Part shown: in pieces, positions 4,879-52,990 of the stretch
Position numbering within the stretch: position 1 is the stretch's first letter
Layout: the number at the start of each line of letters is the position of its first letter
Virus record (IMG/VR): IMGVR_UViG_3300045988_112234
Coordinates: 51,374-115,373 of that record
DNA: 64,000 bases
Source of the DNA: a virus
Strand: one strand, 5' to 3'
Translations under genes and position numbers: made by a program
Notes under the pieces: model-generated
Database searches by the model: none
Seen by the model: the letters and a program-made list of their open reading frames with translations, nothing else
Told to the model about the DNA's origin: nothing

Positions 4879-6126
4879 TCAAATATACGGCAAAACTCTA
4901 CCGTGAGCATACAGGAATTGATGATCTCCAATAATAAAATTATCAATAGGATAGTTACTAATATAACTCTTAACATTATATTTAGTTAAATATGCAGCTA
5001 AGAGTTTTTGATTTAACCATTCAAAATCCCCACCATGATTAGATTCTCCTATAGAGAGATAATTAAAATCTTCACTTTTTACTTTTACTGTAAGAGTAGC
5101 AAAGAACTCCATCATACACTCTATAAATGCTTCACTAATTTCTTTATTATCAAGAATCTCAGGAAGCTCATGACCCCCTCTAGTAGTTTCTTTATTGAAC
5201 CCATCAATAGAATCTCCAAGATTAACTACATATACAGAATGATATTCTTGTCCCACAAAAGATTCCACAATTCTAGATAATCTAGATTTAATTTCTGGAA
5301 CATCATAAGAAGGTAACTGTACAAAACTACTATATTTAGCATTATAAGCTCCGATATGTAAATCAGATAACCATATAATTAAATCAGGATATTTCGCTTC
5401 TTTATTATTAATATTTACTGGAAGCTCTTTATAATCCTTTACTGTATTTTTAATAGTGTCTTCTATAAGTTCCTTATTTAAAGACTTAGAGGTTTCCTTA
5501 GTTAACTTAGTAACTAAAGCTCTTAAATCCTTTACCTCATCTTTCTCTATTCTTTTTAAGAAATCATTCTCTTTTTCCCTAAGATGCATTTCTTTTAATT
5601 CATCCTCAGTATATTCTTCATACATATGAGGAGCAAATGGAGAGGATGCTTTAGTAATATTAAAAGCTCGTAAAATTCTTTTAAAGTCAATAAGAGAATA
5701 ATCTGGGAAATATCTGCTGACAATCTGCTGGGTTAAACCAGAACCGTAATAAGTATACATTCTATATACACTATTCATTTCGTTTCTAGTAAAGACTCCT
5801 GTGATTGCGGGCTTATTTCTTCTGAAAATCTCAAACTTATATCCAGTAATTTTACCAGTCTCCTCGTCTCTTATTTCCCAAGTATTAGAAGCATCATCTG
5901 TATCTTTCTTTACTTCTTTTTTCTTAGTATCCTTTAGTCTATCATATAATTCCAATATCTTCTTGTCATCTTCATCTTTATTTTCTTTCTTTCTAAGATT
6001 TCTCATTGTAATATATACAGTATTTATATTTTTTCCTGATATAGTACACTGAGCTTTTAAAGAACGATTATTATTAATTGCATCATTAAAGAACTTAATA
6101 TAAGAAGATTTTGTTGCTTGTTTCAT
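4879..6126 (-). CDS. calcineurin-like metallophosphoesterase, N-terminal segment (K/E-rich N-domain plus motifs I-III)
   Basis: SDLHIG (GDxHG-type), LGDSIDG (GDxxDRG-type), GESNHGG (GNHD/E-type). Confidence 0.65.
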   Translation of the reverse strand: MKQATKSSYIKFFNDAINNNRSLKAQCTISGKNINTVYITMRNLRKKENKDEDDKKILELYDRLKDTKKKEVKKDTDDASNTWEIRDEETGKITGYKFEIFRRNKPAITGVFTRNEMNSVYRMYTYYGSGLTQQIVSRYFPDYSLIDFKRILRAFNITKASSPFAPHMYEEYTEDELKEMHLREKENDFLKRIEKDEVKDLRALVTKLTKETSKSLNKELIEDTIKNTVKDYKELPVNINNKEAKYPDLIIWLSDLHIGAYNAKYSSFVQLPSYDVPEIKSRLSRIVESFVGQEYHSVYVVNLGDSIDGFNKETTRGGHELPEILDNKEISEAFIECMMEFFATLTVKVKSEDFNYLSIGESNHGGDFEWLNQKLLAAYLTKYNVKSYISNYPIDNFIIGDHQFLYAHGRVLPYI

Positions 6127-21427: not shown

Positions 21428-21704
21428 AGATTACTTTGATCCAATACCACCAGGTCTTGTTGTTGCATTCTTTACTGTTTGAGGGAGCTTATCCCACCAT
21501 ACCTGCTTCTGACGAAGTCTTTCAAGCTTTGCCTTATACTTCATTTTAACTAGAATTGAAAATTAAAAGAAAATTAATCATCTGTGTAATATTAAAATTA
21601 TCTAGGTAAAATACCATAATTTAGTCATAGACACATCTAGAATAGCCTACAAACTTCTAAATTTAGAATCATGAACAATTTATCACTCTAGAAATGAAAA
21701 TGTC

Positions 21705-21884
21705 TTAGAGAGACTCTGAGACATTACCTTCAAAGTGCTCATCAGCATACTTACGAGCATCTTTGATATCATCGAAATATTTACTTGGTTTTAATCGGTC
21801 ACTACGTTTTACCGCAATTTTACCACCAGTAGTACGATAAATAGTAATAGTATCCACTGTTGCTTTTACAATTTCTTTAGCCAT
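21705..21884 (-). CDS. small hypothetical protein (59 aa, MAKEIVKATVDT...)
   Basis: ATG-to-TAA ORF below the track cutoff; hairpin overlaps its 3' end. Confidence 0.4.
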   Translation of the reverse strand: MAKEIVKATVDTITIYRTTGGKIAVKRSDRLKPSKYFDDIKDARKYADEHFEGNVSESL

Positions 21885-21886
21885 AA

Positions 21887-22102
21887 TTAATTATTTTTAA
21901 AAATTTTACTTAAAGTTTCTGTTAACTCAGGATACAGGTAATACAGTGCTAATAACGTATTTATAATTGGACATACTAATATTAACATTGTTATTATATT
22001 AGTAGGAACATTAATTTCAGTCCATCTGTCTATAACAGCAAATGCAGATCCAATATAAATAGCTATACCTGCAACAATTATTATTGATATAACTAAATAC
22101 AT
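21887..22102 (-). CDS. small membrane protein (71 aa, two TM helices)
   Basis: hydrophobic throughout. Confidence 0.45.
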   Translation of the reverse strand: MYLVISIIIVAGIAIYIGSAFAVIDRWTEINVPTNIITMLILVCPIINTLLALYYLYPELTETLSKIFKNN

Positions 22103-22515
22103 TATTCTAATAATTCTAAACTAGCATTACTAGCTAATTCATCCGCTAGATTATTACCAAAACAATCTTGATGTCCCCTAACATGGGTAAATTTAATATT
22201 TTTTATTAAAGATTTAACTCTTTCATATTCTTTATCTAAAATATTCCAGAGCTCTACATTCTTTTTTTTCTTCCATCCTTTAGTAAGACATCCTAATACA
22301 TATTGACTGTCACTTATAAATTCTACTTCATCTATTGGAGTTTTAATGGACTTAAAAGCACATAGCATAGCAATTAATTCCATTTTATTATTAGTAGTAT
22401 GTTTAAAGCCTTTAGAGTATTTTTTAAATACTTCATCATCCTTCATCCATACTATTCCAATACCTCCCTGGTCAATAGAAGATTTATAAGCACCATCAGT
22501 ATAAATCTGTAACAT
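22102..22515 (-). CDS. rnh: ribonuclease H (RNase HI family)
   Basis: IYTDGA...GGIG, TNNKMEL, SDSQYV, VRGHQDCFGNNLADELA catalytic motifs in canonical order. Confidence 0.85.
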   Translation of the reverse strand: MLQIYTDGAYKSSIDQGGIGIVWMKDDEVFKKYSKGFKHTTNNKMELIAMLCAFKSIKTPIDEVEFISDSQYVLGCLTKGWKKKKNVELWNILDKEYERVKSLIKNIKFTHVRGHQDCFGNNLADELASNASLELLE

Positions 22516-22517
22516 AG

Positions 22518-22844
22518 TTATAAAGATATGTAATCTGCATATTCAAATACTATTCCGTTCTTTTCAGGATCAAAATACGTTGTAGACATACAAAAAGTAT
22601 CAAAACTATGAGCTTTTCTATAACCATTTAATAAATCCCTAACATACTCTTCAGTATCCTCTATTGTGGAAATATAACAGTGTTCCTCACCTTTAATAAC
22701 AATTCGTATATCTGAAGCATCATCTAAATCTCCAGTACTAGAACTAATTTCCCAAGTTCTATTATCTGTAAATAATGCTTCTAACTCCAAATTAATGTCA
22801 TGAATTAAGTTAGGATCTAATTCATTTTTATTTATAATGATCAT
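22518..22844 (-). CDS. hypothetical protein (108 aa)
   Basis: ORF. Confidence 0.5.
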   Translation of the reverse strand: MIIINKNELDPNLIHDINLELEALFTDNRTWEISSSTGDLDDASDIRIVIKGEEHCYISTIEDTEEYVRDLLNGYRKAHSFDTFCMSTTYFDPEKNGIVFEYADYISL

Positions 22845-22985
22845 TTTTATTCCAAAGTATTAAATAACAACGTTCTCCTTCTAAATTTGAATACCACAAT
22901 ATACATTGGTTATCTGTAATATCTAATCTTGGATCAATTATAATTATTACCAAAATAATAGTTATAATAAGTCCCAAAATATACA

Positions 22986-23795
22986 TTAGATAACCTTAAA
23001 CATTGTAACATTCTCAGGAAGATTGTCCCAGTCTTTATAAGAATTAGTAAACCATACGTGATTAAAATTTTCTGACAGATTCTTTATACCCTTAGGATTT
23101 ACCATATGAGTAACTGCAATATTTAAACGCTCTTTAGAAATACCTAAAGCATTAAATGCTTTAGCAATACCACAGAAGGTTCCACCACCATCACATAAAT
23201 CATCAAGAATTAACAGAGGTTTATCCTGTATATTTTCAGGATTATCTATTTTAATCTCTAAGATTTTTCCAGTAGTTAAATCTCGGACTTTACTACAAGT
23301 AATTCCTACGCGATTATATCTGAATTCATTTCTCTTTACAGCTCCAGCATCTGGGAAAACTAATTGAAATTCTTTCCAAGTATTATTAGATGGATTCTTT
23401 TCACTATAGAGAGACATAAATTTAACTCCGAATCTAGAATCATAATAAACATCAGAATGAGGTTCTAAAATTTCAATAGTCTCTGCATTACAATTTTTTA
23501 ATATGTTTAAGACTATTTTTAAAGTGAATGGTCTATTGAAATCCATTACTCTATCCATTCTCATACTCATTAAGTAATAGATATTTAACTTATACAGAAC
23601 TTCATGTCTATCAAGAATATCTAAAACTTGTATAAGTATAAATAAGTCTTCAGCATTAGTAACTCTACAGTTAACTAATACTTGCTCCTTATGGCTGAAT
23701 TCTTCTAATGAAATTTGAACTTCTCCATCAGGGAATCTAGAGATAGAATACTTAATATCACTATCTTCTAAATGTACTAAATTTAATTGTTGCAT
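22986..23795 (-). CDS. PRPP-synthetase (Prs)-like phosphoribosyl pyrophosphokinase; candidate ADPR-PP synthetase (Adps) of a NARP1-type pathway
   Basis: type I PRTase/Prs PRPP-binding motif LLILDDLCDGGGT; N-terminal FPDGE...RMDR pattern resembling Prs. Confidence 0.6.
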   Translation of the reverse strand: MQQLNLVHLEDSDIKYSISRFPDGEVQISLEEFSHKEQVLVNCRVTNAEDLFILIQVLDILDRHEVLYKLNIYYLMSMRMDRVMDFNRPFTLKIVLNILKNCNAETIEILEPHSDVYYDSRFGVKFMSLYSEKNPSNNTWKEFQLVFPDAGAVKRNEFRYNRVGITCSKVRDLTTGKILEIKIDNPENIQDKPLLILDDLCDGGGTFCGIAKAFNALGISKERLNIAVTHMVNPKGIKNLSENFNHVWFTNSYKDWDNLPENVTMFKVI

Positions 23796-24277
23796 AATTT
23801 ATAAATATAAAGAGTTATTGTTAAATCATTAGCAAAAAGTTCTTGGAGCATAGGATAAACTACTCCGTCCCAATCTCCTCCTGCTAATCCACATCCCAAT
23901 TTATAAGGAATACCTACTTCTGTTACTTCTTCGTCCTCACAAAAAGCTTTTAAATTTAACAAAGCTTTTTTAAGAGCATTATAATCAGTATGTCTATTTT
24001 CAAAAGGAGCTACTGATTCAGTAAAAGAATATTCTCCAAATAAATTAGCTACGAGATTAATAGGTTCATTTCCTGTTATACATACTTGACATTTTCCTAG
24101 TAATTTTCTAGAATATTTAGAATTTTTACAATAATTAGCATATTGTGTATATACGCTATTCCATTTATTTTTAATAGCCTTAGCTATACCTGCCTCCATT
24201 ACTCCTAAACAATTAGTTTGGTGAGCTATAAGAGGTAAATTTGATTGGAGTAAATCTTCATTAACAACTTCTATCAT
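23783..24277 (-). CDS. macro domain protein (ADP-ribose binding/processing)
   Basis: IAHQTNCLGVMEAGIAKAI and GIPYKLGCGLAGG macro-domain motifs. Confidence 0.7.
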   Translation of the reverse strand: MIEVVNEDLLQSNLPLIAHQTNCLGVMEAGIAKAIKNKWNSVYTQYANYCKNSKYSRKLLGKCQVCITGNEPINLVANLFGEYSFTESVAPFENRHTDYNALKKALLNLKAFCEDEEVTEVGIPYKLGCGLAGGDWDGVVYPMLQELFANDLTITLYIYKLCNN

Positions 24278-25827
24278 ACTAATGTTGAATTTACACGTTC
24301 ACGAATTTCAGAAAGAGAATATTCTCTTACTAATTCTCCATCTACAAAGACTGTTTTAAGACAACCTTGTAGTTCTGCATCCTTAGTCTGCTGGTCATAA
24401 GCAACATACTTACCATCCTCTTTTTCAACTCTTATAAGACCTTTAAGAGAGTTCTTTGTTCCATCATCAGTCTTTGGGTGCTTATAGATTTCTATAAGTT
24501 TACCATTAATGATGCATGCGGTTGCTTTAACTGCGAAACCCAAAGAATCTCTACTCTTAAATTGATAAGTATAAGATCCAATACCTAGAACAAGATTACA
24601 AGCTGCCATATGAGCGTTTTCCAATCTAGCATAGATATCACGCTGACGCTCCAGAGTAATAGAATCTCCATAAAGTAATCCAACCTTGGTACTTGGATAA
24701 CGATAGTCATTTACAGTAGTATTCCATCCAAAGATTTTTCCTAGCATATAATATGCTCCATAGTACTGACCTTCAGATACTTCTACATAATGATTTTCAT
24801 CATCGTCCATAAATGGATTAAAATCACAGTAATACTTACCTTCTTTCATAGCAGTATGATAGTGAGGATTTGTACGAAGACCACAAATAATGTCTACTGG
24901 ATCACCACTATCAGGACGAATTACTACTCGACCAACACGTTTCATAATATCTGCCTTAAGCTTAGGCAAGAATTTTTCAACTACCTGCCAAAAATCCCAA
25001 GTATCAGATACTATTGAGATAATACCTGTTGGATATAGGTCATTAATAAGACGGCGGTATGTTTCAATCTCATCATCCTCACCTCCTGCGCACATTACTG
25101 AATGTTCCGAAGCCGGAACAGTTGCAGCTACAAGTTCTTCAGTAACATTTGCATTGTAATAATGTTCTACTGCTTCAATAGCAGGAATTGTTTCACTACC
25201 ACAGAATGAAGTCATATGAGCCATACCAGAGATAATAGCAGCATCAAGTCCTGCCATACCTCTCATTGAGAAATCGTGACAAGAGAAACCTAGATTTACT
25301 TCCTCTGGGAATCCAGTCTTTCTAGCATGTTCCATAAGTCTCTTTTTATAGAGACGAGCACTTGTTGCAGAAGTACAAGGAAGCCATAGAGTACAACTAA
25401 TTAAAGTTTCCAAGTAATTAGTCAACCAAAAGAAGTCCGGGAGAGTGTTCTTAATAGTCATCATAGGTACTCTTATAGGACAGATAGAACCTTCAGGAAG
25501 AGCTTTAATTTCAATAGGAAGATATCCTAAATCATAGAGTTCTTCAATATGCTTTGTCCCAACCTGGTTAAGATCTACAAAGTTACCTACACGATAGGCA
25601 AATTGCTTAATAGCTTCTTCCTTAGGAAGAGCAAACCATTTGTTAAATTCCTCTATCAAATACTTCTTTACAAAGTACTGAATACCAAATACTACAGAAC
25701 CTTCTGTAGCTTCTGGGAAGTAACGATTACTTCTAGGAGTCCAGTTACTATAAACCATTTGTGTACCCTCTGGGTACATACGATGATGACCAAGCTTGTA
25801 GCCATCAGTTGCATTAATAATTTCCAT
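24274..25827 (-). CDS. nadV: nicotinamide phosphoribosyltransferase family (NadV/NAMPT-like; candidate Namat)
   Basis: N-terminal NATDGYKLGHH... and overall length/pattern of NAMPT. Confidence 0.75.
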   Translation of the reverse strand: MEIINATDGYKLGHHRMYPEGTQMVYSNWTPRSNRYFPEATEGSVVFGIQYFVKKYLIEEFNKWFALPKEEAIKQFAYRVGNFVDLNQVGTKHIEELYDLGYLPIEIKALPEGSICPIRVPMMTIKNTLPDFFWLTNYLETLISCTLWLPCTSATSARLYKKRLMEHARKTGFPEEVNLGFSCHDFSMRGMAGLDAAIISGMAHMTSFCGSETIPAIEAVEHYYNANVTEELVAATVPASEHSVMCAGGEDDEIETYRRLINDLYPTGIISIVSDTWDFWQVVEKFLPKLKADIMKRVGRVVIRPDSGDPVDIICGLRTNPHYHTAMKEGKYYCDFNPFMDDDENHYVEVSEGQYYGAYYMLGKIFGWNTTVNDYRYPSTKVGLLYGDSITLERQRDIYARLENAHMAACNLVLGIGSYTYQFKSRDSLGFAVKATACIINGKLIEIYKHPKTDDGTKNSLKGLIRVEKEDGKYVAYDQQTKDAELQGCLKTVFVDGELVREYSLSEIRERVNSTLV

Positions 25828-26317
25828 TAATTGATTCTTTTAATGTTAAACCTGTACTATATTTATAAAACACTTCAGTTATATAACTCTTAGTTTTTTT
25901 GTGGATTTTCATATGAGGCTGTTGTTTAAGCCACCATGTATATTCTCTTCTAGGGTCAGCTCCATATGTTTTAGCTGCTGCTAAATAATCACATATAAGT
26001 TCTAGAACATATTTTTTAGGCATTTTAGCAGGAATTCCTCCATTATCTAAGGAATGTATCCAATATTCATAATGGTGAGGATTCCTTCCTCTATGATGAA
26101 GGAATGTTTGACTATATCCTAATATTCTACACTCATTCGCTAAAGAGCTCATTTTATCATCCCAATACTTAATAGCTCTTGAAAATTCTGTAAAACTAAA
26201 TTTAGACAAATCATGAGTAATACCTTGCCAATATAATCCTATTTGAAAGCAATATTTAGCAACATAATACTTATGAGTTAAGATTCGCTTTATTAATTTC
26301 AACCAAACTAAGTTCAT
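25814..26317 (-). CDS. hypothetical protein (167 aa)
   Basis: ORF overlapping the nadV start. Confidence 0.55.
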   Translation of the reverse strand: MNLVWLKLIKRILTHKYYVAKYCFQIGLYWQGITHDLSKFSFTEFSRAIKYWDDKMSSLANECRILGYSQTFLHHRGRNPHHYEYWIHSLDNGGIPAKMPKKYVLELICDYLAAAKTYGADPRREYTWWLKQQPHMKIHKKTKSYITEVFYKYSTGLTLKESINGNY

Positions 26318-26541
26318 AATGCTGATAATTTATTTATATAAATATCTGAATATTTCTTTCCAAGTTTTTGCATTATACTATAGAAACTTCTTCTAAAACT
26401 GCTATCTTTCATACACAATATCTTTATATTAGAAATTAAATCTTCTGGTATATGTGCTTCAGAATATTCTTTAGACACTATTTCAGAAGATTTAATTAAT
26501 TCTACTAATAAAGATACTTGATTAGCTTTTTGATAATTCAT
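26314..26541 (-). CDS. hypothetical protein (75 aa)
   Basis: ORF. Confidence 0.4.
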   Translation of the reverse strand: MNYQKANQVSLLVELIKSSEIVSKEYSEAHIPEDLISNIKILCMKDSSFRRSFYSIMQKLGKKYSDIYINKLSAL

Positions 26542-26723
26542 AAGTGAGAATCCCTAATTGCTGTATAATATCCTAGAATAAAAAAGTCTTTACACTTTCC
26601 TAACTCTCTATTAAACATTAATAGATATATAGGAGACTCTGCAATTAATGTTTTCCAAGCTTTATTTACTTTTATTTCAAGAGTATCTGAATTCATAATC
26701 CTTCTTTTTCTAAGGAATTCCAA
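26538..26723 (-). CDS. hypothetical protein (61 aa)
   Basis: ORF. Confidence 0.35.
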   Translation of the reverse strand: MEFLRKRRIMNSDTLEIKVNKAWKTLIAESPIYLLMFNRELGKCKDFFILGYYTAIRDSHL

Positions 26724-26759
26724 TAGTCTGCTTCTAGATCATTCCAATAATCATCTAGA

Positions 26760-26987
26760 TCACTTATAATGTCTGTTAGATCTTCCATCAGATATACAAT
26801 ATAAAATTAGCAATATAATACAGAGTATAATTATAAGCTCTATTCCTATTAAGAATGGGCTAAAAACAACTAACCATGAAATATCTGAATGTAGAATAAC
26901 TTTAGCAACTAATAAAATAATAAAAGCTACTGGAATAACCCATCCTAAACATCCTAAATTCACATTTACTTTATTACTTGACAACAT
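26760..26987 (-). CDS. small membrane protein (75 aa)
   Basis: two hydrophobic helices. Confidence 0.4.
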   Translation of the reverse strand: MLSSNKVNVNLGCLGWVIPVAFIILLVAKVILHSDISWLVVFSPFLIGIELIIILCIILLILYCISDGRSNRHYK

Positions 26988-27156
26988 TTAATAAAGACTT
27001 TATATAATCAATAGATTCCTTCACAGATAAGCAGCCTCCACTCTTTAACATAATGTAAGAGCTTTCACCAACTTCTTCTACTAAGGAAATATCATCTACG
27101 GCTATTAAATATCTTCTATTAATATTGTCATTGTCTAATGTTAAATCAATAAACAC
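26974..27156 (-). CDS. hypothetical protein (60 aa)
   Basis: ORF. Confidence 0.35.
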   Translation of the reverse strand: MFIDLTLDNDNINRRYLIAVDDISLVEEVGESSYIMLKSGGCLSVKESIDYIKSLLNVVK

Positions 27157-27221
27157 ATTTAATCATATTAATAATTTTCTATAATAATCATCTACGTTAT
27201 GATAAGTAAGATAATATAATA

Positions 27222-27422
27222 CTATAAAGATTTAATCCTAGTACAGATCGTTTCTACAGCATTATTAAACTCTTGCTTATTACTATCTAAAATAGTTTCT
27301 CTTAAAAACCCTAAATATGAAGTACTACGACTAGTAATAGATGGTAATTTAAGATTTACTACAATACATTTATTACCATCTATTCTAATTCGTAATGCTC
27401 CACACTTTTTATACTTAACCAT
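27222..27422 (-). CDS. hypothetical protein (66 aa)
   Basis: ORF. Confidence 0.4.
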   Translation of the reverse strand: MVKYKKCGALRIRIDGNKCIVVNLKLPSITSRSTSYLGFLRETILDSNKQEFNNAVETICTRIKSL

Positions 27423-27459
27423 TTAAATTAATAAATATTAGTAATGCTAATACAAAAAT

Positions 27460-27490
27460 AGGGACTAATAAGATAAACTTACTAGTCCCT
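27460..27490 (-). terminator. hairpin agggacta...tagtccct (8-bp stem)
   Basis: inverted repeat in the intergenic region. Confidence 0.4.
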
Positions 27491-27586
27491 TTCTCCTTGC
27501 CATCAAAGGCTTCTACAATTTCTTTTAATGTCGTCTGTTCATCATATAATTAAAAAATTTATTTTTTGGAAGAGTTCTTAATAATT

Positions 27587-27799
27587 TTAAAGTATCATTT
27601 GCTATCCATCAGTATAATAGTGACTTCCTATAAATAAACCTATAGTATCAATAGATTCATCAATATCAAAACTATTATGTGTATCTCTACGACATTCATA
27701 TCTTCCAGCATAAGGACTTACTATCTTTATATTATATCCAAAAGAATGTAGTCCTATATCTATAATTAAATATTGGTGAATAATAATCTAACCTACCAT
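27587..27799 (-). CDS. 70-codon ORF with two in-frame TAG codons and a RuvC/YqgF-like N-terminal motif (LIIDIGLHSFGY); possibly a truncated resolvase remnant
   Basis: MVG*IIIHQYLIIDIGLHSFGYNIKIVSPYAGRYECRRDTHNSFDIDESIDTIGLFIGSHYYTDG*QMIL; no TAA/TGA in frame. Confidence 0.3.
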
Positions 27800-27873
27800 A
27801 ATTTATTAGAGCTTCCATACATATATGTTAGAAGTAGCTACACATTCTTCTTTATATCGCAAATATAAACACA

Positions 27874-28404
27874 TTATTTAAGAATTTTAACTTTTACATG
27901 TTTAATACTGATTCGTTTAGAATTTTTGGGGTGTATTAATATATCAATACAATGTTTATGTCTTTTATTCAGTATATTTAAGTACATATCCTTTACAAGA
28001 TAAAGTACAGATTGAACATTTGAATAGCTACAATTTAGTTTTCTTGCAACATCCATCATACTTTTACAAGTATCTATATAATTATTTTCGGAATCATATA
28101 TTGCTACTGATCTTTTGTTTAACTGTAACTTTGATGAATTTTTTCTAGATTTTTCAGGTTTAGTACCAAAATTGCAATTATACTTATTAGTACACCATTC
28201 TAAATTATCTACACAATTATTTAATTTATTTTCATCTATATGATTCACTTGTGGATAATTATGATAGAGTTGCACTCTCACATATCCACCTTTATCTATA
28301 AAAGTATTTTTAATTTTTTTTCTTTGCACAGAGTAGACTCTTCCTAAATTGGATATTTTATATGCTCCCTTATGCCATTCAATGTCTTTCCATACTTCTT
28401 CCAT
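27874..28404 (-). CDS. HNH homing endonuclease (NUMOD4 N-motif plus HNH_3)
   Basis: IEWHKGAYKISNLGRVYS (NUMOD4-like) and YHNYPQVNHIDENKLNNCVDNLEW (HNH). Confidence 0.75.
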   Translation of the reverse strand: MEEVWKDIEWHKGAYKISNLGRVYSVQRKKIKNTFIDKGGYVRVQLYHNYPQVNHIDENKLNNCVDNLEWCTNKYNCNFGTKPEKSRKNSSKLQLNKRSVAIYDSENNYIDTCKSMMDVARKLNCSYSNVQSVLYLVKDMYLNILNKRHKHCIDILIHPKNSKRISIKHVKVKILK

Positions 28405-28784
28405 TATAATATTTTAATTTTTACATTTTTTAATAAAATCTTTTTTGAATTTTTTGGATGCACTAATATATCGACTCTATGTTTAAATCGTTTATTAGTA
28501 ATATCTCTAACTTCATATATCCCAAATCCTTCTATAAACACTTTTTTAGGTTTATTCTTTGGAAATAAATAAAGTAAATCACGGGATATAGCACACCACT
28601 TGATTTTATTATGTTTTAAATGATGTAAGTTAATTTTAGAACCATCAGCTGTAACTAATGGTTTATTATCACATTGACTCTTTACTGGCTGATAACAAGT
28701 AAGAGTTACATGAGTTATTGTTTGAGCAATACTTTTAGTGCATAAGAAACATAATAATATTAATATAAATTTAAATCTTCTCAT
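28404..28784 (-). CDS. secreted 3D-domain protein (YuiC/MltA-like, cell-wall related)
   Basis: signal peptide; TCYQPV..QCD..P..TADGSKI...AISRDLL...IEGFGIYEVRDI...RVDIL matches the 3D-domain pattern. Confidence 0.65.
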   Translation of the reverse strand: MRRFKFILILLCFLCTKSIAQTITHVTLTCYQPVKSQCDNKPLVTADGSKINLHHLKHNKIKWCAISRDLLYLFPKNKPKKVFIEGFGIYEVRDITNKRFKHRVDILVHPKNSKKILLKNVKIKIL

Positions 28785-47760: not shown

Positions 47761-47949
47761 TTCACAATTCCTGAGGGTTACTAGAATTACCCATTCATTG
47801 TTTCCGTTTCTTATCAATCTGCCCTATAATATTCGCGACTATATAGGTATCCCCCAAATTGGCTGCATTAGTTGGTTAATATTCTTTTACCAGTCGGGTG
47901 CAACCCATGCGTCTAAGTATACTTAGAATACAAACCAACCCGATTTTCG

Positions 47950-48031
47950 TCGGAATAGTGGGACTCGAACCCACACGCATTGCTGCATATGCTCCTAGGG
48001 CATATGTGTCTACCAATTCCACCATACTCCG
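47950..48031 (-). tRNA. class II tRNA-Leu (anticodon UAG) with palindromic anticodon loop CCTAGGA (C at position 33)
   Basis: acceptor CGGAGTA/TATTCCG, 6-bp anticodon stem ATATGC/GCATAT, 13-nt variable arm, T-arm GTGGG-TTCGAGT-CCCAC; overlaps spurious ORF 47876-48070. Confidence 0.6.
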
Positions 48032-48215
48032 AGTTGCCTTTTGTCTACAAAGTTGAGAGGCATAACTCAACTATCGGACTTTTTCTTTTTCGGGTCTTAT
48101 TTATACTGGTTTAACCCCACTTACATGTTATCACAACATCATAGTGAATCTAGCCATTAATCGCTAGTAATCATCAGAATGCCTTCCCAGTTTCATTTAT
48201 TATTCAGGATAAAAT

Positions 48216-48614
48216 TTAGATTTCTTCTAATAACCCTAAATATTTAATATCAGTACTAACTACTTCTCTATATGCATAGTTGATATATACAGTAGCACCT
48301 ACTGGAATTTCAAATATTCCTATTTCAGCACTATACATTCTACCCTTAGCCATTTCTTCAGTTAAGTATGAATGATAACCTTCATGTATATAAAAACGAT
48401 CATAATTCCAAAGTTCTCCCACACATCCCATAACAGATCTATACCTTTCAAATTTAGGTCCTATCTTTACTGTAGGCATAGTCTGAGATTTATAGTATCT
48501 AAAATTTTGATATAAACTTATAAAGATACCTAAAGTTTTTGCCGTGCCTACTTTATAAACTTTCAAAGGCTTCTTCAATACAATTGGAGTTGCCATATAA
48601 TTTGACCAACACAT
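48216..48614 (-). CDS. hypothetical protein, MCW...EGYHSY family paralog 1 (132 aa)
   Basis: paralog of 49078-49515. Confidence 0.55.
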   Translation of the reverse strand: MCWSNYMATPIVLKKPLKVYKVGTAKTLGIFISLYQNFRYYKSQTMPTVKIGPKFERYRSVMGCVGELWNYDRFYIHEGYHSYLTEEMAKGRMYSAEIGIFEIPVGATVYINYAYREVVSTDIKYLGLLEEI

Positions 48615-48638
48615 AATTTAATTATAAATTGTTTTACT

Positions 48639-48857
48639 TTATTTAAATAATTCTATAATTCTCCAATAGATGATTGTATGATGAATACTATATTGTAATA
48701 TCCAAAATAACAATAGAAGTGTACTATACGTTCCTATTCCAAAACTATAAAATATTCGTTTATCTGAATAACTGGAACTAGTATACATTCCCATAAATAT
48801 AGCAATATAAAGTATTATCATAAATATAGCCATTATTAATTGAATAAACCAAGGCAT
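48639..48857 (-). CDS. small membrane protein (72 aa)
   Basis: hydrophobic. Confidence 0.45.
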   Translation of the reverse strand: MPWFIQLIMAIFMIILYIAIFMGMYTSSSYSDKRIFYSFGIGTYSTLLLLFWILQYSIHHTIIYWRIIELFK

Positions 48858-48859
48858 AA

Positions 48860-49081
48860 TTATTTATATGTATTGGCATCCAAATCAATAGCTGTCATTC
48901 CTTCTCTAAATTCGGAATAAATAACTATCTTATGAGGTTTCTTTTTAGAATCATACATTATTTCTAATGTTTTATTCTCATAAGCCCAGCTTCTCTTACC
49001 TGTCCACGTGTCAGGATAATTGTAACTATTGACTAAAACAACAATTAATAATAATCCTATAATTAATAATACTTTTTTCAT
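48860..49081 (-). CDS. small secreted/membrane-anchored protein (73 aa)
   Basis: N-terminal signal/TM. Confidence 0.45.
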   Translation of the reverse strand: MKKVLLIIGLLLIVVLVNSYNYPDTWTGKRSWAYENKTLEIMYDSKKKPHKIVIYSEFREGMTAIDLDANTYK

Positions 49082-49515
49082 AATTTTATATATTTACCTG
49101 TGTAGCGAATTTTATTAGAAACAATTTCACCTTCTTCGTTTGTAAAATATACAAAACCTGAGGGAATTATAAAGGTAGCTAAATATAAAGAATTGTCTAA
49201 TCTAAATATTCTATCACGATTTCCACACTGTATAGTTTTTACACAACCTCCAAAGATGTCCGGCACTATTGAATCACATACGAAATTTACAGAAGAGTAA
49301 CTATGATAACCTTCTGTAATTTTTGCAAAAATTGAACAAGGTTCAATCATTACTCCTAAAGTTAAAGAAGGCTGTATATCTTTTGAATAGTAAGTATAAT
49401 CCATAAATGGAGATATACAATATTTCTTAGTAGCTTTCTTAACTATTTTATATATATTAATATCTTCTTTAGCTATTTGAGCTTTTAATTTATTAATATT
49501 ACAAGTCCAACACAT
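49078..49515 (-). CDS. hypothetical protein, MCW...EGYHSY family paralog 2 (145 aa)
   Basis: paralog of 48216-48614. Confidence 0.55.
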   Translation of the reverse strand: MCWTCNINKLKAQIAKEDINIYKIVKKATKKYCISPFMDYTYYSKDIQPSLTLGVMIEPCSIFAKITEGYHSYSSVNFVCDSIVPDIFGGCVKTIQCGNRDRIFRLDNSLYLATFIIPSGFVYFTNEEGEIVSNKIRYTGKYIKL

Positions 49516-49861
49516 AATTATTTAACTAATTTATAGAATCCTAGTTCTATGGCATCCTTTCTATGCTTGAGAAAAGATGCCATTTACCTATAATACTATT
49601 TTGTCCATTCCAAATCAATAATTTTATTTATATCCTTCATCTTTGTGCATAAATTTAGTTAAATCTAAATAATTGATAAGCTGATCAGCATACCATTATT
49701 TACTTTCTCCTAAATCCTCATAATAGTACCACTGTTTCTTAGAATTAACATAAAACATAATAATACCATTATTTACTTTTATTTTAGTAATTAATAGTTC
49801 ATCTCTACCTGCCTTAGTTCAAAACATATTAAAGCAAACTGTTCTCCGCATAAATCAGATA

Positions 49862-50278
49862 CTAAGTATTCTTTACCATCATTAGGTATACTATTAATAT
49901 ATTTGAATAATTGAGTATAGTCACTATTAATATTATTAAGCTTTCTTTGCTGATACACTTAATAAATTCTTCTTTGGATATTTCCTTAGCACCTTCCAAT
50001 TTTTTACTTAGCTCCTCTACATTCCAATATTTACGGCTAAGATGCCCTGCCGTACTTATTAAAGTACAATTAAATACAAAATAGTCAGAATTAAGACACT
50101 TACCTCCAGTGTATAATAAAGAATATCCTTTCAATTTAAAGAATCTTCTATATCCATCAGAACTAGGTTTTGTAGACACCTCCTTTAAAAGTTGTAAATG
50201 ATCATTATTACGTTTCAACATTTCCTCTAATCTGAGCTTCTCAGATTCAAGAGTGTTTATTTCATTTGTAAAATCCAT
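49862..50278 (-). CDS. hypothetical protein (138 aa)
   Basis: ORF. Confidence 0.5.
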   Translation of the reverse strand: MDFTNEINTLESEKLRLEEMLKRNNDHLQLLKEVSTKPSSDGYRRFFKLKGYSLLYTGGKCLNSDYFVFNCTLISTAGHLSRKYWNVEELSKKLEGAKEISKEEFIKCISKESLIILIVTILNYSNILIVYLMMVKNT

Positions 50279-50361
50279 ATGTTAATGTGTTAAATAAAAG
50301 AGCCTAACTAGATTAACTAATTAGACTCTCCAAAATAATAATAATATGATAAAAGAAATGG

Positions 50362-50435
50362 TCCGTGTTGAGGGACTTGAACCCCCGACCACTTAGGTAT
50401 AAGCTGAGCACTCTGACCAACTGAGTTAAACACGG
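50362..50435 (-). tRNA. tRNA with anticodon UAU (Ile, AUA-reading) by hand parse
   Basis: acceptor CCGTGTT/AACACGG, D-arm ACTC/GAGT, anticodon loop CTTATAC, T-arm GGGGG-TTCAAGT-CCCTC. Confidence 0.55.
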
Positions 50436-50442
50436 ATATAAA

Positions 50443-50510
50443 AGTGTCTGAGGGTCGCTACTTCCTCTCCTCCCTAATTGCTAGCAGGGCGTGCACTTGC
50501 CACTAAGACA
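50443..50510 (-). ncRNA. GC-rich about 68-nt element closed by a GTGTCT/AGACAC stem between two tRNA genes (possible small RNA or processing element)
   Basis: local GC island in an AT-rich spacer; no T-loop motif. Confidence 0.25.
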
Positions 50511-50681
50511 CTTAGCGCTTTAGGCTTTTTATAAGAAGCCTTAACTTAATAAAGTTCTCGCATAATTTATAACCAAAAACAGATAAATAATTCCATTTTC
50601 ACAAACAGAATTTTTACCGAAAACTTAGAAAATTCTTAAAACTTATGAGTATAAAACATCGAATATGAATAATAATAGAGT

Positions 50682-50753
50682 AAATATGGACAGACTCGAA
50701 CTGTCAACCTCTGGTTACCTAGCCAGTGCCCTACCGCTTTAAACTACATATTT
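50682..50753 (-). tRNA. tRNA-like gene with an 8-nt anticodon loop CTAGGTAA on a 4-bp stem (identity unresolved)
   Basis: good acceptor AAATATG/CATATTT and T-arm GACAG-TTCGAGT-CTGTC; the anticodon stem fits only as CTGG/CCAG with an 8-nt loop. Confidence 0.4.
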
Positions 50754-50925
50754 CTATTTATACTAGTATTGTAAAAACTCATACTACTTTCGCAAGCAGT
50801 ATGAGTTTAAAAAAAGATAAAATCTTTTACAAAACGAAAATTTTACATTACTTATAAATTTTCACAAATTCACAGTAATTATGAATGATTTTAATTTTTC
50901 AAAACATAATAAATAATCAATTATG

Positions 50926-51010
50926 TAGCTCAGACGGGACTCGAACCCGTACGGACACATGTCCAATGGTGTTTAAGACCATCTCCTATACCAATTCGGA
51001 TACTGAGCCA
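50926..51010 (-). tRNA. class II tRNA-Leu (anticodon UAA)
   Basis: anticodon stem ATGGT/ACCAT, loop CTTAAAC, long variable arm, T-arm ACGGG-TTCGAGT-CCCGT. Confidence 0.65.
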
Positions 51011-51014
51011 AGGA

Positions 51015-51037
51015 GCAACTAATTATCTGCTAGTTGC
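51015..51037 (-). terminator. hairpin gcaacta-attatctgc-tagttgc (copy 1 of a repeated hairpin)
   Basis: identical 33-nt sequence recurs at 53525-53557; lies just downstream of the 51077-51436 gene end. Confidence 0.5.
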
Positions 51038-51076
51038 CAACAATATTTATTTTATAAACCCTAAACTATTACGGTA

Positions 51077-51436
51077 TTACAATTGTTTTAACATGTTTGT
51101 AGCTATATGTAATGAAATATCCACAGTTGTATGAATATCATCATTTAATTTTAAGATATATGTATTGTTTTTATCATTCTTTCTAGTTATCTCAGATATG
51201 TATTTATGATTTATTAAAAATCCTTGTGTTGCAAGAATAAAATTAATACATAAAACACGTGAAATATTTTTTAATGAACAACACACAATAATACTATTGC
51301 CATGAACATCTATTATAGTACTATATTTACCAGATGTTTTTATACACACAATGTCATTTATGTTTATCTGTCTGTACTCTCGTCCCTTAAACACTAAAAA
51401 TGTATCAGAGTCAATCTGTATTGTTTTTATTTCCAT
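51077..51436 (-). CDS. hypothetical protein (119 aa)
   Basis: ORF. Confidence 0.5.
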   Translation of the reverse strand: MEIKTIQIDSDTFLVFKGREYRQININDIVCIKTSGKYSTIIDVHGNSIIVCCSLKNISRVLCINFILATQGFLINHKYISEITRKNDKNNTYILKLNDDIHTTVDISLHIATNMLKQL

Positions 51437-51441
51437 ATCTC

Positions 51442-51831
51442 TTAACCCATAATAAAACGAGCATCTACAATATTTTCAGGATGATGAATAGTTTTAGTTA
51501 ATCCTATCATCGCCCATTTCACAACATCAGAATGTTTAACTCCACTTTTAAGTTTATGGTAAAATATTAAATCATAAGCTTCTCCACTTTTAAAAGTTAC
51601 TTTGATTTTAAATGTAGGCTTTTCATCATTTCTAATAAGTTCGTCCATTTCTTCATCAGTTACCATGTAACTGAACAGAGGATTAGAAAGATGTTCTTTT
51701 TTGTATTTCTTTTCAAGTTCAGCTAAGTTTAACTTTGCACACTTGAGTACATATTTACAACCAAATTTCTTAGCACTTTCTATTTGTGCTATTAAATTGG
51801 TTTTACTAATAAAATAATCTTGTCTTGTCAT
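51442..51831 (-). CDS. hypothetical protein (129 aa)
   Basis: ORF. Confidence 0.5.
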   Translation of the reverse strand: MTRQDYFISKTNLIAQIESAKKFGCKYVLKCAKLNLAELEKKYKKEHLSNPLFSYMVTDEEMDELIRNDEKPTFKIKVTFKSGEAYDLIFYHKLKSGVKHSDVVKWAMIGLTKTIHHPENIVDARFIMG

Positions 51832-52016
51832 AATTTATCTATAATTAATGTGTTAATAATCTATTTAAATAATAGGTGACTGGTTATATTTAAACTATTC
51901 CATTGTCCTCAGCTATCTAACGTTCTTTCTCTTTTTAACCCAAATGATTAATTTTAAGGTAATTACGCTATTTAATAGAGTTACTGAGAGTTGTTTAGTA
52001 TCTATTTATTAATTAG

Positions 52017-52089
52017 TAGAGGATGGCAGAGTCGGACTGCCTATTAGGGAGTCAAAGTCCCTCGTGTGAAACCGTTACACTAATCCTCC
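52017..52089 (-). tRNA. tRNA-Gln (anticodon UUG)
   Basis: acceptor GGAGGAT/ATCCTCT, D-arm GTGT/ACAC, anticodon stem AGGGA/TCCCT, loop CTTTGAC, T-arm GGCAG-TCCGACT-CTGCC. Confidence 0.6.
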
Positions 52090-52155
52090 GAATAAAATAC
52101 TATTCTCATGAACCATATTTTCCAACTACAAGTTCACAATTTGTCATAAATGTTG

Positions 52156-52230
52156 CGGAGAAAGAAGGATTCGAACCTTCGAGCTAACACCTTAGCAGGG
52201 TGCCACTTTCGACCGCTCAGTCATTTCTCC
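52156..52230 (-). tRNA. tRNA with anticodon GCU (Ser-type) but a short class-I variable loop
   Basis: acceptor GGAGAAA/TTTCTCC, anticodon stem GCACC/GGTGT, loop CTGCTAA, T-arm GAAGG-TTCGAAT-CCTTC. Confidence 0.5.
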
Positions 52231-52343
52231 AATAAAGCTTCCTATCTTCACAGACAAGAAGCCTAGCAACTCTTTAACGTTATAAAGTCCGCTGACTTTA
52301 TATTTTAAATATTAATCGTATTAGTTTTTTAAATATGGAAGAG

Positions 52344-52416
52344 TAGCACTAGCGATGCTCGAAATCGCCTTTGGATCTTGAAAGAATCCCGTCCTAACCA
52401 GCTAGACAATAGTGCC
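52344..52416 (-). tRNA. tRNA-Glu (anticodon UUC)
   Basis: acceptor GGCACTA/TAGTGCT, anticodon loop CTTTCAA, T-arm GCGAT-TTCGAGC-ATCGC. Confidence 0.6.
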
Positions 52417-52935: not shown

Positions 52936-52990
52936 AAGTACTAGTTTATATCGGAAAACTAGTAAAACGTTAACACATTATTATGGAAAC

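What the first reader, a model, noticed from the sequence alone, without database searches (positions are those of the whole stretch)
22986..25827. Prs-like / macro-domain / NadV-like gene trio: a NARP1-type NAD+ reconstitution (anti-defence) cluster with an embedded ADP-ribose-binding macro domain
22986-23795 has the PRPP-synthetase fold signature (FPDGE...RMDR..., LLILDDLCDGGGT). 24274-25827 is a NAMPT/NadV family protein. Between them, overlapping both, sits a macro domain with both diagnostic glycine-rich motifs. Established knowledge: the phage pair ADPR-PP synthetase (a Prs homolog) plus nicotinamide ADPR transferase (a NadV homolog) rebuilds NAD+ from ADP-ribose and nicotinamide to defeat NAD-depleting defences (Thoeris, DSR, SIR2 and SEFIR-type systems). 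A macro domain wedged into the operon could capture or deacylate the ADPR substrate, or remove ADP-ribosyl marks. I have not seen this three-gene arrangement described.
Basis: partly seen in the sequence, partly recalled or inferred. Interest (0 to 1): 0.65.

Follow-up and report, generated by a model that had tools for sequence, protein, structure and literature searches.

The report
Phage NAD+ rebuilding operon with phosphatase
This gut-phage gene trio is a further example of a phage counter-defence operon first described in 2026 (NARP1-AP), which rebuilds the cell's NAD+ after bacterial immune enzymes destroy it; it is a real feature but not a new kind of system.

Summary
Three translationally coupled minus-strand genes fill 22986-25827: a Namat-type NadV homologue (517 aa), a macro domain (164 aa) and an Adps-type Prs homologue (269 aa).

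The arrangement is not undescribed. Osterman et al. (bioRxiv 10.64898/2026.01.28.702374) named it NARP1-AP. In that pathway the macro protein Adpp dephosphorylates ADPR-1''-phosphate, the product of the aRES RES-domain defence. Adps and Namat then rebuild NAD+ from the resulting ADPR. They found the macro gene in 15% of 859 phage NARP1 operons.

The window proteins pass every sequence-level membership test I could run:
- Every residue mutated in the tested Vibrio phage Gary operon is conserved.
- The Namat adenine-clamp motif is present.
- The Adps donor loop is Adps-like, not PRPS-like.
- The macro fold is Poa1p/DarG-like, and it scores highest against an Adpp profile.

This is therefore a new member of a known kind, from an uncultured human-gut phage, with reversed gene order.

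Two side observations are new to me. A DUF5662 (HD-like?) gene is conserved directly upstream. In sister lineages the macro slot holds an unrelated HAD-type phosphatase instead.

The parts
24274..25827 (-). Namat (nicotinamide ADP-ribose transferase; NadV/NAMPT-family), 517 aa
   Evidence: Pfam NAPRTase 5.2e-34 plus NAMPT_N; PHROG 448 2.3e-178. In the PDB search, SPbetaL1 Namat 9W5X scores 477 bits against about 205 bits for human and Xanthomonas NAMPT. 41% identical to the Vibrio phage Gary Namat, E 2e-117.
24547..24579 (-). Namat selectivity-clamp helix motif GSYTYQFKSRD (aa 417-427)
   Evidence: Matches the Namat-specific consensus GS-X-phi-X-phi-X-phi-TRD, with aromatic residues at positions 3, 5 and 7 (PMC12774641). 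SPbetaL1 F392 and Y396 correspond to window Y419 and F423 (alignment).
25102..25104 (-). Namat catalytic His242
   Evidence: Aligns with Gary Namat H243, whose H243A mutant was among those that abolished anti-aRES activity.
23783..24277 (-). Adpp-type macro domain (predicted ADPR-1''-phosphate phosphatase), 164 aa
   Evidence: Pfam Macro 3e-9, PHROG 335 'phosphatase' 2.8e-34. 35% identical to Gary Adpp, E 1e-24. Scores 110.5 bits against an HMM of 7 NARP1-associated Adpp proteins, versus 45-70 bits for other macro families. AlphaFold model pLDDT 86; best Foldseek matches are the DarG macro domain and Poa1p (TM 0.80).
24212..24223 (-). Macro active-site motif HQTN (His19, Asn22)
   Evidence: Equivalent to Gary Adpp H24 and N27, which were mutated in the preprint's loss-of-function tests, and to Poa1p H23 and N26.
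23870..23896 (-). Macro glycine-rich phosphate-binding loop GCGLAGGDW (aa 128-136)
   Evidence: Closely matches the loop in most NARP1-associated Adpp proteins (G[CA]GL[AG]G.DW; Gary is identical). Ala132 sits where TARG1 has its catalytic Asp125.
22986..23795 (-). Adps (ADP-ribose pyrophosphokinase; PRPS-like), 269 aa
   Evidence: PHROG 619 4.7e-61, but below the curated cut-offs of all PRPS models. BLASTP gives 72-75 bits to ICP1 and Gary Adps versus 46 bits to E. coli Prs. ICP1 Adps residues F18, R87, H121, D161, K185, D212, D213, C215, D216 and F221 are conserved.
23175..23204 (-). Adps donor (PP) loop DDLCDGGGTF (aa 198-207)
   Evidence: Adps-type C-D-G...F (ICP1 DDICDGAASF, Gary DDISDGGASF) rather than PRPS-type I-D-T...L (E. 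coli DDMIDTGGTL).
23289..23291 (-). Adps catalytic Lys169 (in SKVRDLTTG)
   Evidence: [quoted passage not shown]
25814..26317 (-). DUF5662 protein, 167 aa, overlapping the Namat start by 14 nt; candidate fourth operon member (inferred, function unknown)

Best explanation
The trio is a NARP1-AP operon (NAD+ reconstitution pathway 1 with associated phosphatase) of an uncultured human-gut phage, transcribed on the minus strand in the order Namat, Adpp, Adps.

Proposed mechanism:
1. When host defences cleave NAD+ (SIR2, TIR or SEFIR types give ADPR plus nicotinamide; aRES gives ADPR-1''-phosphate plus nicotinamide), the macro protein Adpp removes the 1''-phosphate and yields ADPR.
2. Adps transfers the beta-gamma pyrophosphate of ATP to the 1''-OH of ADPR, giving ADPR-PP plus AMP.
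3. Namat joins nicotinamide to ADPR-PP, regenerating NAD+ plus PPi.

Shown here: gene identity, operon architecture, family membership by sequence and predicted fold, and conservation of the experimentally critical residues. Inferred from homologues characterised elsewhere: all three enzyme activities and the anti-defence phenotype.
For: Architecture: the three ORFs overlap by 4 and 13 nt on one strand, within a run of coupled small genes.

Literature: the same three-gene operon from Vibrio phage Gary overrides aRES and Nezha. Purified Gary Adpp converts ADPR-1P to ADPR. Inactivating any one of the three genes abolishes the effect.

Homology to Gary: Adpp 35% identity (E 1e-24), Adps 30% (3e-20), Namat 41% (2e-117). 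All residues mutated in Gary are conserved: Adpp H24/N27 = H19/N22, Adps K192 = K169, Namat H243 = H242.

Namat: 477 bits to the SPbetaL1 Namat crystal structure versus about 205 bits to human and Xanthomonas NAMPT. The clamp motif GSYTYQFKSRD is present, and an Arg aligns with R40.

Adps: it is below the PRPS curated cut-offs, closer to ICP1 and Gary Adps than to E. coli Prs, and Adps-like at the discriminating positions C201, G203 and F207.

Macro: the model (pLDDT 86) matches Poa1p at TM 0.80 and the DarG macro domain. It gives the highest score of the non-Adpp macro proteins tested against an Adpp HMM (110.5 bits versus 70 or less).

Comparative: the module is conserved in 13 sibling IMG/VR phages. 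In sister lineages the same slot is filled by a HAD-type phosphatase, which fits a phosphatase role for that slot. aRES occurs in 4.7% of Bacteroidota genomes, according to Table S3 of the preprint.
Against: No activity was measured for these proteins. Identity to the tested Gary proteins is only 30-41%.

The Adps assignment is the weakest. The margin over E. coli Prs is modest (72-75 versus 46 bits). Two adenine- or ATP-contacting aromatic residues of ICP1 Adps are not conserved (F92 is Met, F223 is Gly).

The macro domain differs from nearly all Adpp proteins at one position: E82, where the other Adpp sequences aligned mostly have Gln (GQY becomes GEY). Its closest solved relatives include DNA and protein ADP-ribosyl hydrolases (DarG, TARG1).

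The host is unknown, so the presence of aRES in the real host is unverified. NCBIfam would name the Namat 'nicotinate phosphoribosyltransferase' (514.9 bits, above its cut-off), because that model does not separate Namat from NAMPT.
Confidence: 0.78

Rival explanations
1. The macro protein is an anti-ADP-ribosylation factor: a free-standing DarG/TARG1-like hydrolase that strips ADP-ribose from phage DNA, RNA or protein modified by DarT-like defence toxins. The released ADPR might be recycled by NARP1.
For: The only NCBIfam and PADLOC hits are DarG (51 and 57.7 bits). The top Foldseek match is the M. tuberculosis DarG macro domain, and TARG1 is also matched.
Against: The DarG scores are far below the NCBIfam cut-off (51 versus 250). 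The biochemically validated Gary Adpp and two other NARP1 macro proteins score similarly against the same PADLOC DarG model (44.6, 54.2, 42.5 bits), so the hit reflects the shared macro clade. At the position aligned with the Lys-Lys of the DarG 'PTKKHW' segment, the window has Gly81-Glu82-Tyr83. That this segment holds the catalytic Lys, as TARG1 K84 does, is from my own knowledge of the literature. TARG1 Asp125 aligns with Ala132. The window protein scores higher against an Adpp profile than DarG or TARG1 do. It sits inside a NARP1 operon.
Confidence: 0.08
2. The flanking genes are an ordinary auxiliary-metabolism pair: a true PRPP synthetase plus a true NAMPT that make NMN from ribose-5-phosphate and nicotinamide (the pre-2024 annotation, or a NARP2-like route). 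The macro gene is an unrelated passenger.
For: Database names for both proteins say so: PHROG 619 and 448, and NCBIfam NF006629 above its cut-off. SPbetaL1 Namat retains about half of NAMPT's NMN-forming activity in vitro.
Against: The NadV homologue carries the Namat-specific clamp motif and scores more than twice as high against Namat as against NAMPT structures. The Prs homologue fails every curated PRPS threshold and has the Adps-type donor loop. In Osterman 2024, 97% of Adps-clade proteins have Namat adjacent, whereas NARP2 NAMPTs co-occur with an Nmnat. No Nmnat-like domain was found among the 17 neighbouring ORFs scanned.
Confidence: 0.07
3. The macro protein acts on a different ADPR derivative than ADPR-1''P, for example O-acetyl-ADPR, ADPR-2'-phosphate from NADP+ cleavage, or a cyclic phosphate. 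It still feeds NARP1 but counters a defence other than aRES.
For: The Gln-to-Glu change at position 82 relative to most Adpp proteins. The slot can alternatively hold a HAD phosphatase, and a putative HD-like DUF5662 is co-conserved, which hints at a broader substrate set. Other NARP1 'feeder' enzymes exist, such as RyDEP for 2'/3'cADPR.
Against: His19 and Asn22 and the glycine-rich loop match the validated ADPR-1P phosphatase. No data point to another substrate.
Confidence: 0.07

Closest known systems
NARP1-AP of Vibrio phage Gary (Adps / Adpp KNV71_gp137 / Namat; Osterman et al., bioRxiv 10.64898/2026.01.28.702374)
   Same: It has the same three protein families, with the macro gene in the middle of a tight operon. 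All mutated catalytic residues are conserved. The macro protein has the same clade relationships (Poa1p, TARG1, DarG, BT1257).
   Different: Gene order is reversed (Namat-Adpp-Adps versus Adps-Adpp-Namat). Identity is only 30-41%. The source is an uncultured human-gut phage with 30% GC rather than a Vibrio demerecvirus. A DUF5662 gene is fused to the operon upstream. Position 82 is Glu rather than Gln. No entry in the preprint's Table S1 matches the terms Bacteroid, Prevotella, crAss, 'Bacteriophage sp' or MT835492.
Core NARP1 (SPbetaL1, Bas63, FADO, ICP1; Osterman 2024; structures 9W5X/9W5W for Namat and ICP1 Adps)
   Same: An Adps plus Namat pair; the Namat clamp motif; the Adps donor loop and catalytic Lys.
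   Different: Core NARP1 has no phosphatase and cannot use ADPR-1''P, so aRES defeats it.
Yeast Poa1p (ADP-ribose 1''-phosphate phosphatase, PDB 6LFQ/6LFR)
   Same: The predicted fold matches (TM 0.80, rmsd 2.3). The His and Asn of the H-x-x-N motif are conserved.
   Different: About 24% identity. Poa1p has a long insertion and Phe152 where the window has Ala132. Its cellular role is tRNA-splicing by-product clearance, not anti-defence.
DarG / TARG1 macro domains (ADP-ribosyl glycohydrolases)
   Same: The same macro sub-clade, and the top structural and HMM neighbours.
   Different: The window lacks the Lys-Lys of the DarG segment and the TARG1 Asp. It has no DarT partner and no DarG C-terminal domain.
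NARP2 (KVP40 NadV NAMPT + NatV Nmnat/Nudix)
   Same: It uses a NadV-family enzyme to rebuild NAD+ during infection.
   Different: NARP2 uses PRPP and needs an Nmnat. Here the NadV homologue has the Namat motif, is paired with Adps, and no Nmnat was seen nearby.
RyDEP-NARP1 of mycobacteriophage DyoEdafos (bioRxiv 10.64898/2026.05.28.727677)
   Same: The same logic: an accessory enzyme inserted in a NARP1 operon converts an ADPR derivative into ADPR for Adps.
   Different: The accessory is an RyR-domain glycosidase acting on 2'/3'cADPR, not a macro phosphatase.

Membership tests
NARP1 (Adps + Namat) | A PRPS-like protein of the Adps clade, distinct from housekeeping Prs | tested here: met
   It is below all curated PRPS cut-offs. 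It scores 72-75 bits to ICP1 and Gary Adps versus 46 bits to E. coli Prs. Positions C201, G203 and F207 and the KVRDLTTG loop are Adps-like. No full phylogeny was built, and the margin is modest.
NARP1 (Adps + Namat) | A Namat homologue in the immediate vicinity of adps (97% of the Adps clade) | tested here: met
   The two genes are separated only by the 164-aa macro gene, in the same operon.
NARP1 (Adps + Namat) | Namat selectivity clamp: SCH motif GS-X-phi-X-phi-X-phi-TRD with aromatic X, plus a stacking residue in the SCL loop | tested here: met
   GSYTYQFKSRD at aa 417-427, with aromatic residues at positions 3, 5 and 7. Position 8 is Lys and position 9 is Ser, instead of the consensus Asn/Val and Thr. 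Arg35 aligns with SPbetaL1 R40.
NARP1 (Adps + Namat) | Catalytic residues: Namat His (Gary H243); Adps Lys (ICP1 K185, Gary K192), H121, D161, D212, D213 | tested here: met
   H242; K169, H113, D149, D198, D199.
NARP1 (Adps + Namat) | Enzymology: ADPR + ATP gives ADPR-PP; ADPR-PP + nicotinamide gives NAD+; rescue from NAD+-depleting defence | not testable with these tools
   Needs protein biochemistry and phage assays.
NARP1-AP (with Adpp) | A macro-domain gene (PF01661, PF14519 or PF20016) within two genes of the NARP1 genes | tested here: met
   PF01661 at 37.3 bits, above the cut-off of 22, and located between Namat and Adps.
NARP1-AP (with Adpp) | A Poa1p-like macro fold and homology to validated Adpp | tested here: met
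   Foldseek to Poa1p gives TM 0.80, E 3e-11. BLASTP to Gary Adpp gives E 1e-24. An Adpp HMM gives 110.5 bits, versus 70 or less for the other macro clades tested.
NARP1-AP (with Adpp) | Active-site His and Asn (Gary H24, N27) and the glycine-rich loop | tested here: met
   H19, N22 and GCGLAGGDW.
NARP1-AP (with Adpp) | ADPR-1''P gives ADPR phosphatase activity; counters aRES | not testable with these tools
   Inferred from the Gary homologue only.
NARP2 (NAMPT + Nmnat) | An Nmnat homologue encoded in the same phage, and a NAMPT that prefers PRPP | tested here: inconclusive
   No Nmnat- or Nudix-like Pfam hit among the 17 ORFs scanned between 20093 and 28404. The rest of the window and the rest of the genome were not scanned. 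The Namat motif argues against a PRPP-preferring NAMPT.
DarG antitoxin / TARG1 glycohydrolases | Catalytic Lys after the central strand (DarG PTKK, TARG1 K84; catalytic role from my own knowledge), TARG1 Asp125, and for DarG a C-terminal DarT-binding domain and an adjacent darT | tested here: not met
   G81-E82-Y83 and A132 at those positions. The protein is 164 aa with no C-terminal domain. The neighbours are Namat and Adps. The NCBIfam DarG score is 51 bits against a cut-off of 250.
Canonical PRPP synthetase (Prs) | Passes the TIGR01251 / PRK equivalog thresholds; has the R5P loop D-T-[AG]-G-T | tested here: not met
   TIGR01251 scores 71.9 against 113, and NF002095 scores 60.7 against 296. 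The loop is C-D-G-G-G-T.

The most novel reading that the evidence does not exclude
In this family of large gut phages the NARP1 module may be a four-gene cassette. It would consist of DUF5662 (a possible HD-type phosphohydrolase), Namat, an exchangeable 'feeder phosphatase' slot, and Adps.

The slot holds a macro Adpp in the window's lineage. In most sister lineages it holds an unrelated small HAD-type phosphatase, with no detected sequence similarity to the macro protein. The swap is seen even next to a Namat that is 93% identical to the window's. The same HAD family also sits between Adps and Namat in Saprospiraceae, Cytophagales and Chitinophagales MAG contigs.

If the HAD protein and DUF5662 are additional enzymes that convert phosphorylated or cyclic ADPR derivatives into ADPR, they would extend the known set of NARP1 feeder enzymes (Adpp, RyDEP). 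That would imply further, still unknown, NAD+-derived products of host defences. I found no mention of HAD or DUF5662 in the NARP1-AP preprint, and no paper in the searchable library mentions DUF5662.
Probability: 0.35. Interest if true: 0.55.

Novelty: new member of a known kind. Interest (0 to 1): 0.3.

Why it matters
The finding extends NARP1-AP from the cultured-phage hosts I saw in the preprint's table (Vibrio, Pseudomonas, Acinetobacter, Pseudoalteromonas in the part read) to an abundant lineage of uncultured human-gut phages of roughly 100-190 kb. This suggests that NAD+-phosphorolysing (aRES-type) immunity is a selective force in the gut microbiome. aRES is reported in about 4.7% of Bacteroidota genomes.

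By itself this is an annotation-level result. More interesting are the comparative observations: macro/HAD slot swapping, the conserved DUF5662, and natural Namat deletions and homing-element insertions in siblings. They give cheap, testable candidates for further 'ADPR-feeder' enzymes. They also show that this counter-defence module is under rapid turnover.

Tried and rejected
- Sigma-70 promoter scan of 21500-28000 found fewer sites than shuffled controls (26 versus 41). It is uninformative for a probable Bacteroidota phage. The only strong terminator-like hairpin lies upstream, at 27490-27460.
- An Rfam e-value scan of four sibling loci with an interrupted Namat gene found no intron family at E<=0.01. 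One insertion nevertheless contains a group-I-like GGTTCAGAGACTA element, so the intron idea stays unproven.
- I suspected stop-codon recoding because of a CTA-anticodon tRNA and the lack of long ORFs beyond 37 kb. Re-calling ORFs with TAG or TGA read as sense added only one long ORF (300 codons or more), none of them beyond 36 kb. I rejected this for the window.
- A PDB sequence search with the HAD-like protein gave nothing significant. Its HAD assignment rests on motifs I-IV, PHROG 1238 (3e-17) and weak NCBIfam hits to BT0820-family HAD phosphatases at E 0.004.
- Host inference from MAG binning failed. Near-identical phage contigs are binned with Alistipes, Bacteroides, Eubacteriales, Clostridium, Gastranaerophilales and Intestinibacter.
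- The MAFFT alignment misplaces the central strand of TARG1. The K84 equivalence therefore rests on the DarG 'PTKK' alignment and on motif logic, not on a structural superposition.
Full report
**Observation.** The region 22986-25827 holds exactly three minus-strand ORFs: 24274..25827 (517 aa), 23783..24277 (164 aa) and 22986..23795 (269 aa). Their boundaries overlap by 4 nt (ATGA) and 13 nt. A fourth ORF, 25814..26317, overlaps the start of the 517-aa gene by 14 nt.

Profile searches confirm the three families:
- NAPRTase plus NAMPT_N, and PHROG 448 at 2.3e-178.
- Macro (above the Pfam cut-off), and PHROG 335 'phosphatase' at 2.8e-34.
- PHROG 619 'ribose-phosphate pyrophosphokinase' at 4.7e-61.

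The Prs-like protein stays below every curated PRPS threshold in Pfam and NCBIfam.

**What is already known.** A full-text search for NARP1 plus macro found Osterman et al., bioRxiv 10.64898/2026.01.28.702374 (January 2026). That preprint reports the following:
- RES-domain defence proteins (aRES) cleave NAD+ phosphorolytically into nicotinamide and ADPR-1''-phosphate.
- Core NARP1 cannot use ADPR-1''-phosphate.
- 15% of 859 phage NARP1 operons carry a macro-domain gene.
- The Vibrio phage Gary protein (Adpp) converts ADPR-1P to ADPR in vitro.
- The three-gene operon Adps-Adpp-Namat, named NARP1-AP, overrides both aRES and Nezha.
- Inactivating any one of the three genes abolishes the effect.

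**Membership tests.** I fetched the Gary operon and compared it protein by protein. Adpp is 35% identical (E 1e-24), Adps 30% (3e-20) and Namat 41% (2e-117). The preprint's strain table lists the loss-of-function mutants: Adpp H24A and N27A, Adps K192A, and Namat H243A. These positions correspond to H19, N22, K169 and H242 in the window, and all are conserved.

*Namat.* In the PDB sequence search the SPbetaL1 Namat structure (9W5X) scores 477 bits. Human and Xanthomonas NAMPT score about 205 bits. The Namat-specific clamp motif defined in PMC12774641 is GS-X-phi-X-phi-X-phi-TRD, with aromatic X. It is present as GSYTYQFKSRD. An Arg aligns with the stacking residue R40.

*Adps.* The ICP1 protein used for the Adps structures (PMC13586617) matches the residue numbering given in that paper. 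The following ICP1 residues are conserved in the window: F18, R87, H121, D161, K185, D212, D213, C215, D216 and F221. F92 is Met and F223 is Gly in the window. Most of these residues are shared with true PRPS enzymes. The discriminating positions are the donor loop (window C-D-G...F, like Adps, against E. coli I-D-T...L) and the K-V-R-D-x-x-T-G hairpin. At these positions the window is Adps-like. BLASTP gives 72-75 bits to ICP1 and Gary Adps and 46 bits to E. coli Prs. This is the weakest of the three assignments, but adjacency to a clear Namat backs it. Osterman 2024 found a Namat next to 97% of Adps-clade genes.

*Macro.* An AlphaFold2 model (pLDDT 86) matches the DarG macro domain, Poa1p (TM 0.80), BT1257, SCO6735 and TARG1. 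Gary Adpp has the same set of solved relatives. I built an HMM from seven NARP1-associated macro proteins in the preprint's Table S1. It scores the window protein at 110.5 bits. The other macro proteins score lower: BT1257 70, SCO6735 69, DarG 64, TARG1 56 and Poa1p 45.

**The DarG-like rival.** The only NCBIfam and PADLOC hits for the macro protein are DarG. However, validated or NARP1-linked Adpp proteins score similarly against the same PADLOC model. The window has Gly-Glu-Tyr where DarG has T-K-K. It has Ala where TARG1 has its catalytic Asp125. I therefore rate the anti-ADP-ribosylation reading as unlikely. One difference from most Adpp proteins is Glu82 in place of the usual Gln. Its significance is unknown.

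**Context.** The window (30% GC) belongs to an uncultured phage. Its closest database record is MT835492.1, from human faeces in Mexico. Neighbouring genes are RNase H and many small ORFs of unknown function. No Nmnat-like gene was seen among the 17 ORFs scanned between 20093 and 28404. Elsewhere the window carries replication genes, an anaerobic ribonucleotide reductase and 12 tRNAs. I searched the preprint's Table S1 for Bacteroid, Prevotella, crAss, 'Bacteriophage sp' and MT835492 and found none of them. This instance therefore extends the known host and ecological range. Its gene order (Namat-Adpp-Adps) is the reverse of Gary's. The preprint reports aRES in 4.74% of Bacteroidota genomes. 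The true host is unknown, because MAG binning of near-identical contigs is inconsistent.

**Comparative findings beyond the brief.**

1. In MT835492.1 a 1.85-kb in-frame deletion between two Gln-Gly codons fuses the first 32 residues of DUF5662 to the last 29 of Namat. The macro and Adps genes are left intact.
2. In several IMG/VR siblings the Namat gene is interrupted. At codon ~244 there is an insertion that in some loci encodes an HNH endonuclease. At codon ~430 there is a ~213-nt or ~1.2-kb insertion with a group-I-intron-like element. Rfam did not recognise either.
4. The middle gene of the 46 loci has no detected sequence similarity to the macro protein. It is a 140-aa protein with invariant HAD motifs (DFDNT, T, K...LLDDRAG), a PHROG 1238 hit and weak BT0820-family HAD phosphatase hits. 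Contigs whose Namat is 93% identical to the window's carry this HAD gene, with an Adps only 69% identical. The swap breakpoint therefore lies at the 3' end of Namat. The same HAD family also sits between Adps and Namat, in the opposite order, in Saprospiraceae, Cytophagales and Chitinophagales MAG contigs. Replacement of a macro phosphatase by an unrelated phosphatase fold in the same slot is independent comparative support for a phosphatase role there. I did not find it mentioned in the NARP1-AP preprint.
5. About 70 Bacteroidota chromosomal or MAG NadV homologues at ~50% identity carry the Namat motif. Most have an Adps-like neighbour. This matches the chromosomal NARP1 noted by Osterman 2024 and by PMC12774641.

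**Verdict.** The feature is real and correctly recognised as a NARP1-type cluster with an embedded macro domain. It belongs to the already described NARP1-AP system. The most likely role of the macro protein is ADPR-1''-phosphate phosphatase (inferred), not ADPR capture or de-ADP-ribosylation. I rate it a new member of a known kind, with modest interest. The HAD/macro slot exchange and the conserved DUF5662 are the parts worth following up.

Noticed in passing
L002 (MT835492.1) 5819-6004; corresponds to window 24369-26222: The closest GenBank relative has a clean 1.85-kb in-frame deletion. It fuses DUF5662 residues 1-32 to Namat residues 489-517 at a shared Gln-Gly microhomology. The macro and Adps genes (88% and 94% amino-acid identity to the window's) are left without a Namat.
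   Followed up: yes
L004, L006, L009, L010, L012 (site near Namat codon 244); L007, L012 (site near codon 430): In sibling IMG/VR phages the Namat gene is interrupted by insertions. One site carries a 257-nt or ~780-nt element, the longer form encoding an HNH-type endonuclease, and splits the gene into two ORFs. The other carries a ~213-nt or ~1.2-kb element containing GGTTCAGAGACTA, which resembles a group I intron core. Rfam found no family at E<=0.01. The window copy is uninterrupted.
   Followed up: partly
L024-L027, L041-L097 (IMG/VR and metagenome contigs), L109-L118, L120, L121, L178, L182, L186: In most sister lineages the slot between Namat and Adps holds a ~140-aa HAD-type phosphatase (motifs DFDNT / T / K..LLDDRAG) instead of the macro domain. 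This is true even next to a Namat 93% identical to the window's. The same HAD family lies between Adps and Namat, in reversed order, in Saprospiraceae, Cytophagales and Chitinophagales MAG contigs.
   Followed up: partly
[not shown]
   Followed up: partly
window 27874-28404 (-): An HNH homing endonuclease (NUMOD4, HNH_3, NUMOD1) is inserted relative to MT835492.1 (window ~27972-28410 is absent there). Its C-terminal tail (..DILIHPKNSKRISIKHVKVKILK) duplicates the tail of the upstream 126-aa ORF at 28404-28784.
   Followed up: partly
window 59322-59395 (+); 50680-50753 (-); tRNA cluster 47949-53523 (-): The window has twelve tRNA genes. One has a CTA anticodon (an amber-suppressor type, called 'Pyl' by ARAGORN) on the opposite strand, in a patch of inverted GC skew. 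Another has a predicted 4-base anticodon. Re-calling ORFs with TAG or TGA as sense added no long ORFs (300 codons or more) beyond 36 kb, so there is no sign of recoding within this window.
   Followed up: partly
L119-L188 (GTDB genome contigs: Larkinella, Chitinophaga, Runella, Siphonobacter, Taibaiella and others): Chromosomal NadV homologues of many Bacteroidota (~50% identical to the window Namat) carry the Namat clamp motif GS[YF]TY[QE]YVTRD. Most have a neighbour more similar to ICP1 Adps than to E. coli Prs. This looks like a widespread bacterial NARP1-like ADPR salvage pair.
   Followed up: partly
Prevotella Lak megaphages (MK250020-MK250028): Lak phages have an Adps-like gene (37% identity, at ~420 kb) and a short Namat-like DNA match (at ~196 kb) at widely separated positions.
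   Followed up: no
L021, L022 (IMG/VR contigs of 345 and 412 kb): Jumbo-phage contigs carry the order Adps-Namat-macro, with a macro protein 51% identical to the window's. This is a third gene order for the same three families.
   Followed up: no
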